A DNA stretch of 326 bases, taken from the NCBI RefSeq assembly GCF_003334255.1, contig NZ_QOWU01000262.1. One strand, 5' to 3'. Of this stretch, positions 1 to 326 are shown in pieces. The stretch is from Escherichia coli. Its GTDB lineage: Bacteria > Pseudomonadota > Gammaproteobacteria > Enterobacterales > Enterobacteriaceae. The position numbers were made by a program, and so were the translations under genes. Numbering within the stretch: the stretch's first letter is position 1; each line of letters begins with the position of its first letter. Under the pieces are notes generated by a model. The model did not search any database. It saw only the letters and a list, made by a program, of their open reading frames with translations, and was not told where the DNA came from.

Positions 1-326
1 TACCTCTCCCGTTTACTCAGTTGTTCAGGCAGATGGTGAAGCAGCTCACCGTTGCCGCAGTAAATGGCGGCATGGTTCGGTACCGAAGCACCAAAGCAGC
101 ACAGCAGAATATCGCCCGCCTGTGCAGAGGACAGGGGCACCCGGTAAAAGCCGGTGACCGCCATATTGTCCAGGTAAAGGTTCTGACCGTTGCGCCACCA
201 GTCATCCTCGCGATGAAAATCCGGCATTTCAGTCCCCGCCAGATGATAAGCATCCCGGAACAGCGTGTAACAGTCCGTCACCCCGTGCTCAAAGCGCCGT
301 CCTGTCAGATGTGGCACACAGCGGAA
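1..326 (-). CDS. K: Internal fragment (5' and 3' ends both outside the window) of a phage lambda gpK-like tail tip assembly protein, covering the NlpC/P60 peptidase-like domain
   Basis: Seen in sequence: the reverse-complement frame with codons at + 326..324 (F) through + 5..3 (R) has 108 sense codons and no stop; the other minus-strand frame in the track stops at 17..19, and the + strand frames I translated stop at 37..39 and 155..157. Translation contains ...EHGVTDCYTLFRDAYH... and ...SVPNHAAIYCGNGELLHH..., matching the Cys and His-His arrangement of NlpC/P60 papain-like peptidases. Established knowledge (recalled, not searched): this closely resembles the C-terminal half of lambda gpK, which has an N-terminal JAB/MPN domain and a C-terminal NlpC/P60 domain. 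The trailing 2 nt (+ 2..1, 'ta' on the coding strand) begin the next codon, so the gene continues below position 1; its start lies above position 326. Confidence 0.87.

What the first reader, a model, noticed from the sequence alone, without database searches (positions are those of the whole stretch)
33..272. Candidate NlpC/P60 catalytic residues (Cys and His-His) are intact
In the real frame, the Cys in the motif GVTDCYTLF is encoded at + 270..272 (aca, reverse complement tgt). The His in VPNHAAIY is at + 72..74 (atg, reverse complement cat). The two His in GELLHH are at + 36..38 and + 33..35. The Cys-to-His spacing and a third polar residue about 12 positions after the His fit the papain-like NlpC/P60 arrangement. 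An intact set suggests this gpK homologue keeps peptidase or amidase potential and is not a decayed prophage remnant.
Basis: partly seen in the sequence, partly recalled or inferred. Interest (0 to 1): 0.3.

Follow-up and report, generated by a model that had tools for sequence, protein, structure and literature searches.

The report
Intact peptidase site in tail protein K
The window encodes the middle of the well-known lambda-type phage tail-tip assembly protein K, and its cysteine-peptidase (NlpC/P60) domain does carry an intact, strongly conserved Cys-His-His catalytic set; this is correct but ordinary and already described for this protein family.

The parts
1..326 (-). Internal segment of tail-tip assembly gene K (codons 103-210 of 247); open frame with no stops
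   Evidence: Translation. 100% DNA identity to annotated K genes of phage PhiR5_1, PPompW prophages and others and to 'C40 family peptidase' genes in E. coli chromosomes.
21..302 (-). NlpC/P60 (Pfam PF00877, MEROPS C40) domain match, window residues 9-102
   Evidence: Pfam i-Evalue 1.8e-10, model positions 1-85 of 105. On the full protein the match is residues 111-224 against model 1-105, E 1e-12.
270..272 (-). Catalytic nucleophile Cys (window Cys19 = K Cys121), preceded by invariant Asp (273..275)
   Evidence: Aligns with MepS Cys94 (mature Cys68). Cys in 102/103 and Asp in 103/103 homologues. First residue of helix 121-131 in the AlphaFold model.
72..74 (-). Catalytic His (window His85 = K His187)
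   Evidence: Aligns with MepS His145 (mature His119). 102/103 conserved. Start of strand 187-193.
36..38 (-). Third triad residue His (window His97 = K His199), 12 residues after the catalytic His
   Evidence: Aligns with MepS His157 (mature His131). 102/103 conserved. End of strand 196-199.
33..35 (-). Second His of the HH pair (window His98 = K His200); not a canonical triad position but a K-family-specific conserved residue
   Evidence: Aligns with MepS Ala158. His in 97/103 and Gln in 5/103 homologues.
159..200 (-). K-family-specific 14-residue insertion (WWRNGQNLYLDNMA, K 145-158) between the Cys helix and the beta-sheet; accounts for the longer Cys-His spacing
   Evidence: Gap in MepS in the hhalign alignments. 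The WW, G, N-L-Y and D-N positions are conserved in the family.
111..113 (-). Conserved Asp of the G-D motif before the central strand (window Asp72 = K Asp174)
   Evidence: 102/103 conserved. Aligns with the GD of MepS 'RTGDLVLF'.
3..10 (-). GGGAGAGG inside K codons K-R-E-R: likely ribosome-binding site for the overlapping downstream gene I, whose ATG lies 10 nt beyond the window edge
   Evidence: L001 sequence 6317-6324 with ATG at 6336. Inference only.

Best explanation
The window is the core of the C-terminal NlpC/P60 (C40, papain-like) domain of a lambda-type tail-tip assembly protein K, a two-domain protein with an N-terminal JAB/MPN metalloprotease domain and a C-terminal NlpC/P60 domain. 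Shown here: the catalytic set Cys121-His187-His199 (window Cys19, His85, His97) is intact, lies in the same columns as the MepS/Spr triad, sits on the expected secondary-structure elements, and is under strong purifying selection. Inferred: the domain is a working cysteine peptidase or amidase in which His187 deprotonates Cys121, His199 orients His187, and the thiolate attacks an amide bond through an acyl-enzyme intermediate. Also inferred: it acts in the cytoplasm during assembly of the tail tip, together with the JAB domain, on a tail-tip component. The most plausible substrate is gpI, whose ubiquitin-like N-terminal domain is reported to be removed by gpK. Cell wall is the less likely substrate.
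Against: No enzymatic activity of the NlpC/P60 domain of K, and no mutagenesis of its Cys, is documented in any paper I could reach. The reported gpI cleavage is attributed to the 'deubiquitinating domain', meaning JAB, so the NlpC/P60 domain may have a different substrate or none. The closest solved relatives are all peptidoglycan endopeptidases. The aromatic residue equivalent to the conserved Spr Tyr56 is Phe in this protein and in 87/103 homologues (low-confidence alignment), which could alter catalysis. I could not measure Cys-His distances because model coordinates are not exposed.
Confidence: 0.7

Rival explanations
1. The NlpC/P60 domain is a peptidoglycan endopeptidase used at infection. 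A few copies of K would travel with the tail tip and locally cut the cell wall so that the tape-measure protein and DNA can cross the periplasm.
For: All close structural and sequence relatives are peptidoglycan DL-endopeptidases: MepS, CwlO, LytE, RipA/B. There is a weak match to NCBIfam 'putative phage cell wall peptidase, NlpC/P60 family'. The lambda enzyme that cuts peptidoglycan at entry is stated to be unidentified (PMC11101478).
Against: gpK was not found in virions by mass spectrometry and is not resolved in any tail structure. The F-pyocin homologue is absent from particles. The TIGR02219 score of 20-25 bits is far below its 81.9-bit cut-off. The N-terminus shows no hydrophobic signal-peptide-like stretch by inspection of the sequence.
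Confidence: 0.1
2. The domain is a non-catalytic binding or scaffold module (pseudo-enzyme). The conserved Cys and His residues would serve to hold a substrate-like tail of gpI or another tip protein, or to stabilise the fold, while all chemistry is done by the JAB domain.
For: The only reported cleavage by gpK is assigned to the deubiquitinase-like JAB domain. The canonical Tyr is replaced by Phe. The very high pTM of 0.91 suggests the two domains form one rigid unit.
Against: Pseudo-enzymes usually lose the nucleophile, yet here Cys, both His and the preceding Asp are kept in 102-103 of 103 homologues at about 38% overall identity. Iyer et al. describe tail clusters in which the K-like protein has only the NlpC/P60 domain, which argues the domain has its own role.
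Confidence: 0.15
3. The window is a piece of a decaying, non-functional prophage, and the intact residues are simply not yet mutated.
For: The window is only 326 bases of unknown origin, and E. coli genomes carry many prophage copies (median 2, up to 14 places per genome).
Against: There is no stop in 108 codons. The sequence is identical in complete phage genome records and in intact tail modules with no pseudogene flags. Differences from relatives are mostly synonymous, with dN/dS 0.03-0.24.
Confidence: 0.03

Closest known systems
Bacteriophage lambda tail-tip assembly protein K (gpK; TAPK of Iyer et al. 2006)
   Same: Same gene family and same position in the tail module (L-K-I-J). 85% DNA identity across the window and 87% protein identity over 247 aa with re-sequenced lambda. 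Same JAB + NlpC/P60 architecture and identical catalytic residues.
   Different: Twelve amino-acid substitutions within the window, none at conserved positions. The old lambda reference J02459 annotates only 199 aa because of a one-base difference at 14266.
E. coli MepS (Spr) and other NlpC/P60 peptidoglycan DL-endopeptidases (CwlO, LytE, RipA/B)
   Different: K has no signal peptide or lipobox and acts inside the cell. It carries a 14-residue WW-containing insertion between Cys and His, an extra conserved His after the triad His, and Phe in place of the conserved Tyr. It is also fused to a JAB domain. Sequence identity is only about 20-24%.
Pseudomonas aeruginosa F-pyocin PA0639
   Same: Described as a gpK homologue required for tail-tip formation and absent from mature particles. 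This matches the assembly-factor behaviour inferred here.
   Different: It belongs to a tailocin, not a phage. I did not examine its sequence or catalytic residues.
JAMM/MPN deubiquitinase-like enzymes (PfJAMM1, Rpn11, desampylase)
   Different: This is a different domain from the one in the finding. It matters only because it supplies the functional partner and the reported gpI cleavage.

Membership tests
NlpC/P60 (Pfam PF00877; MEROPS C40) | Significant match to the family profile HMM | tested here: met
   i-Evalue 1.8e-10 (41.2 bits) on the 108-aa window peptide. 1e-12 (48.4 bits) covering model 1-105/105 on the full protein, and 103/103 homologues match.
NlpC/P60 (Pfam PF00877; MEROPS C40) | Catalytic Cys in the D-C-[SY] motif, in the same column as a characterised enzyme's nucleophile | tested here: met
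   hhalign at 96.5-97% probability places K Cys121 on MepS Cys94 (mature Cys68). 102/103 conserved. A plain pairwise phmmer alignment misplaced this segment because of the insertion.
NlpC/P60 (Pfam PF00877; MEROPS C40) | Catalytic His, and a third polar residue (His/Glu/Asn/Gln) about 12 residues later on the next strand | tested here: met
   H187 and H199 align with MepS His145 and His157 (mature 119 and 131), and with the equivalent His residues of Spr and LytE. Each is 102/103 conserved.
NlpC/P60 (Pfam PF00877; MEROPS C40) | Papain-like alpha+beta fold with Cys at the N-terminus of a helix and His on a beta-strand | tested here: met
NlpC/P60 (Pfam PF00877; MEROPS C40) | Conserved Tyr upstream of the Cys (Spr Tyr56), proposed to tune the nucleophile or bind substrate | tested here: not met
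   The equivalent position is Phe114 here (F 87, Y 13, W 3 of 103). The alignment of this segment has low confidence. This is an auxiliary feature, not a defining one.
NlpC/P60 (Pfam PF00877; MEROPS C40) | Demonstrated hydrolase activity (peptidase or amidase) | not testable with these tools
   No biochemical data for this domain of K in the searchable literature.
Lambda-type tail-tip assembly protein K | Two-domain JAB + NlpC/P60 protein encoded between L and I in a siphophage tail module | tested here: met
   Identical DNA lies in K of PhiR5_1 (Z-U-V-G-T-H-M-L-K-I-J-lom) and in an E. coli prophage. Pfam gives both domains. PHROG phrog_30 minor tail protein, E 2.5e-160. The window itself shows only the NlpC/P60 part, and its own flanks are unknown.
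Peptidoglycan DL-endopeptidases (MepS/LytE/CwlO type) | Export to the cell envelope (signal peptide or lipobox) and cell-wall substrate | tested here: not met
   The K N-terminus MTQTESAILAHARRCAPAES belongs to the JAB domain and has no hydrophobic leader. gpK is absent from virions. NCBIfam phage cell-wall peptidase model scores 20-25 bits against a cut-off of 81.9.

The most novel reading that the evidence does not exclude
The NlpC/P60 domain of K may be a second, papain-like processing protease of the tail-tip assembly line, with its own cytoplasmic protein substrate. [quoted passage not shown] That would make K a dual-protease checkpoint enzyme and a prokaryotic example of a papain-fold enzyme working with a ubiquitin-like domain. 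The family-specific His200, the WW insertion and the Tyr-to-Phe change would then be adaptations to a protein substrate instead of a muropeptide.
Probability: 0.2. Interest if true: 0.5.

Novelty: already known. Interest (0 to 1): 0.1.

Why it matters
The result has little importance of its own. It confirms that a routine annotation ('C40 family peptidase / tail tip assembly protein K') is right and that the active-site residues are in place. Its wider relevance is that the job of this domain in lambda, the best-studied siphophage, is still not publicly defined. [quoted passage not shown] The near-invariance of Cys121, His187, His199 and His200 across the family argues that catalysis by this domain matters, and it names the exact residues to mutate.

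Tried and rejected
(1) Pairwise phmmer of the window peptide against PDB sequences gave only weak hits (best E 0.11). It aligned the two His correctly but put the Cys against a non-catalytic position of LytE, because K has a 14-residue insertion. I rejected that alignment in favour of profile-based ones.

(2) A profile search of the PDB with the full K family aligned only the His-containing half of the domain, so it could not settle the Cys column.

(3) Anantharaman & Aravind 2003 and Aramini et al. 2008 are not held. The Spr triad numbering therefore rests on a citing paper that prints Cys68, His119 and a garbled third residue, on my own knowledge that the third residue is His131, and on the 26-residue offset computed from the MG1655 mepS sequence.

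(4) Searches for a paper or preprint on gpK's peptidase function found only a conference summary.

(5) I considered folding a K-I fusion to see which active site receives the gpI linker. I did not run it because the tool returns no coordinates or contacts. 

(6) The other five reading frames contain only short ORFs and nothing of note.

(7) NCBIfam gave only sub-threshold hits, so it does not help with naming.

Full report
**Observation**

The 326-base window has one fully open frame, on the minus strand starting at + position 326. It gives 108 residues: FRCVPHLTGRRFEHGVTDCYTLFRDAYHLAGTEMPDFHREDDWWRNGQNLYLDNMAVTGFYRVPLSSAQAGDILLCCFGASVPNHAAIYCGNGELLHHLPEQLSKRER. The other two minus frames are broken by stops, and the plus strand has only a 27-codon ORF.

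Counting on the sequence confirms every coordinate in the finding:
- Cys19 is at + 270..272 (aca, reverse complement tgt).
- His85 is at + 72..74 (atg / cat).
- His97 is at + 36..38 (gtg / cac).
- His98 is at + 33..35 (atg / cat).

**What the sequence is**

The window is 100% identical to part of the gene annotated 'tail tip assembly protein K' or 'phage tail assembly protein' in 13 phage records. These include phage PhiR5_1 and the PPompW prophages of Shiga-toxin-producing E. coli. It is at least 99% identical to a place in 877 E. coli genome records, where NCBI's pipeline calls the gene 'C40 family peptidase'.

In PhiR5_1 the gene lies in a complete lambda-type tail module, Z-U-V-G-T-H-M-L-K-I-J-lom. 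The same holds in an E. coli chromosome, with no pseudogene flags. The full protein is 247 aa, and the window covers residues 103-210. The candidate residues are therefore K Cys121, His187, His199 and His200. Lambda itself is 85% identical over the whole window without gaps.

**Domain assignment**

- Pfam NLPC_P60 matches the window peptide with i-Evalue 1.8e-10.
- On the full protein, Pfam finds Prok-JAB (residues 3-105, 7e-15) and NLPC_P60 (residues 111-224, the complete model, 1e-12).
- PHROGs places the protein in phrog_30, minor tail protein.

**Catalytic columns**

A plain pairwise search of PDB sequences gave only weak hits. It aligned the two His correctly with LytE but misplaced the Cys. 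I therefore built a family profile. An exhaustive HMMER search of 1.84 billion representatives returned 2776 relatives. I aligned 103 clean full-length homologues, 32-58% identical to the query (alignment A1).

Profile-to-sequence hhalign against E. coli MepS/Spr, taken from the MG1655 genome, gave 96.5% probability and 97% with the C-terminal domain alone. The residue equivalences are:

| K residue | MepS precursor | MepS mature |
|---|---|---|
| Cys121 | Cys94 | Cys68 |
| His187 | His145 | His119 |
| His199 | His157 | His131 |
| His200 | Ala158 | – |

Cys68 and His119 are named as catalytic residues of Spr in a paper citing Aramini et al. 2008. That His131 is the third member is from my own knowledge of that paper, which is not held. 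The profile search of the PDB independently aligned the two His with Spr, MepS, CwlO and LytE.

The longer Cys-to-His spacing (66 residues against 51) comes from a 14-residue K-family insertion, WWRNGQNLYLDNMA.

**Conservation and selection**

In A1, Cys121, His187 and His199 are each present in 102 of 103 sequences. Asp120 is present in 103, Asp174 in 102 and His200 in 97. Only about 22 of the 247 positions are invariant or conserved in at least 90% of the sequences.

Against six phage K genes that differ at 10-49 of the 326 bases, most changes are synonymous (dN/dS 0.03-0.24). There are no stops, and the four residues are always kept.

**Fold**

AlphaFold2 on A1 gave mean pLDDT 97.4 and pTM 0.91. 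Cys121 is the first residue of helix 121-131, His187 is at the start of strand 187-193, and His199 is at the end of strand 196-199. That is the papain-like layout.

**How it most likely works**

Shown: an intact, selected NlpC/P60 active-site set.

Inferred: a cysteine peptidase or amidase mechanism, with a Cys121 thiolate activated by His187 and His187 oriented by His199.

The substrate is not established. Several facts point away from cell wall and towards an intracellular assembly role:
- K has no leader peptide.
- gpK is not detected in lambda virions by mass spectrometry and is not resolved in tail structures.
- The F-pyocin homologue PA0639 is absent from particles, and its deletion gives tip-less tubes.

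Iyer, Burroughs and Aravind (2006) described K as JAB + NlpC/P60. They predicted that both peptidase domains process the ubiquitin-like protein I, encoded next door. [quoted passage not shown] The N-terminal domain of gpI is indeed unseen in tail structures. That cleavage is attributed to the 'deubiquitinating' (JAB) domain, so the specific task of the NlpC/P60 domain remains open.

Rival readings:
- A virion-delivered peptidoglycan hydrolase. All structural neighbours are cell-wall endopeptidases, and lambda's entry hydrolase is unidentified, but K is not in virions.
- A non-catalytic binding module. This is unlikely given retention of the nucleophile in 102/103 homologues.
- A decaying prophage fragment. 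This is contradicted by the selection pattern and the intact contexts.

**Comparison with what is known, and novelty**

This is a member of the lambda K family and of the NlpC/P60 superfamily. Both assignments, and the domain architecture, were published in 2003-2006 and are in routine annotation.

Differences from canonical cell-wall NlpC/P60 enzymes:
- fusion to a JAB domain;
- cytoplasmic location;
- the WW-containing insertion;
- the extra conserved His200;
- Phe in place of the conserved Tyr.

These features belong to the whole K family, not to this sequence. The finding is correct and ordinary, so I rate the novelty 'already known' and the interest low.

Noticed in passing
window 3..10 (minus strand); L001 6317-6338: GGGAGAGG inside K codons K-R-E-R lies 11 nt upstream of an ATG (L001 6336, 10 nt beyond the window edge). 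That ATG opens a 226-aa gene I ORF overlapping the last 103 nt of K in another frame, the same overlap as lambda K/I in J02459. It is a likely ribosome-binding site for I embedded in K.
   Followed up: partly
L001 6336-7016 versus annotated 6435-7016; L010 5435-6016: Both the PhiR5_1 record and PGAP annotate gene I from an internal GTG (193 aa). The longer ATG-initiated ORF (226 aa) has the same layout and 103-nt overlap with K as lambda I (223 aa) in J02459. It adds about 33 N-terminal residues that would belong to the ubiquitin-like domain, so the short annotation probably truncates that domain.
   Followed up: partly
L003 (J02459.1) record position 14266 versus L009 (PV340536.1): The classic lambda reference lacks one G after position 14266 relative to a re-sequenced lambda. 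This splits the K reading frame, so K is annotated as 199 aa without the N-terminal part of the JAB domain (including the conserved Glu). The re-sequenced genome gives a 247-aa K that is 87% identical to the protein studied here.
   Followed up: yes
K residues 19-81 (outside the window, upstream of + position 326); L001 5695-5940: The N-terminal JAB/MPN domain has an intact JAMM metalloprotease motif (E19, H68-S69-H70, S78, D81). Each residue is conserved in at least 90% of 103 homologues, so both peptidase domains of K appear catalytically competent.
   Followed up: partly
window 33..35 (His98 = K His200); also 15..17 (Ser104 = K Ser206) and K Arg112, Arg224: Several residues outside the canonical NlpC/P60 triad are nearly invariant in the K family but not in MepS: His200 in 97/103, Ser206 in 102/103, Arg112 in 102/103. 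They may define a family-specific substrate pocket. No explanation was tested.
   Followed up: no
window 291..293 (Phe12 = K Phe114): The position that aligns (with low confidence) to the conserved Tyr56 of Spr is Phe here and in 87 of 103 K homologues (Tyr in 13, Trp in 3). The family therefore mostly lacks the hydroxyl thought to assist the nucleophile in cell-wall NlpC/P60 enzymes.
   Followed up: partly
one search hit list (P0022, P0026, P0028, P0037, P0043, P0115 and others): Many database entries fuse K with L (PF05100) or with I (PF06805) in one long protein. Most have one or two member sequences, so they look like frameshift or gene-calling artefacts at the short L/K gap and the K/I overlap. 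Iyer et al. also mention real K-I and I-J fusions.
   Followed up: no
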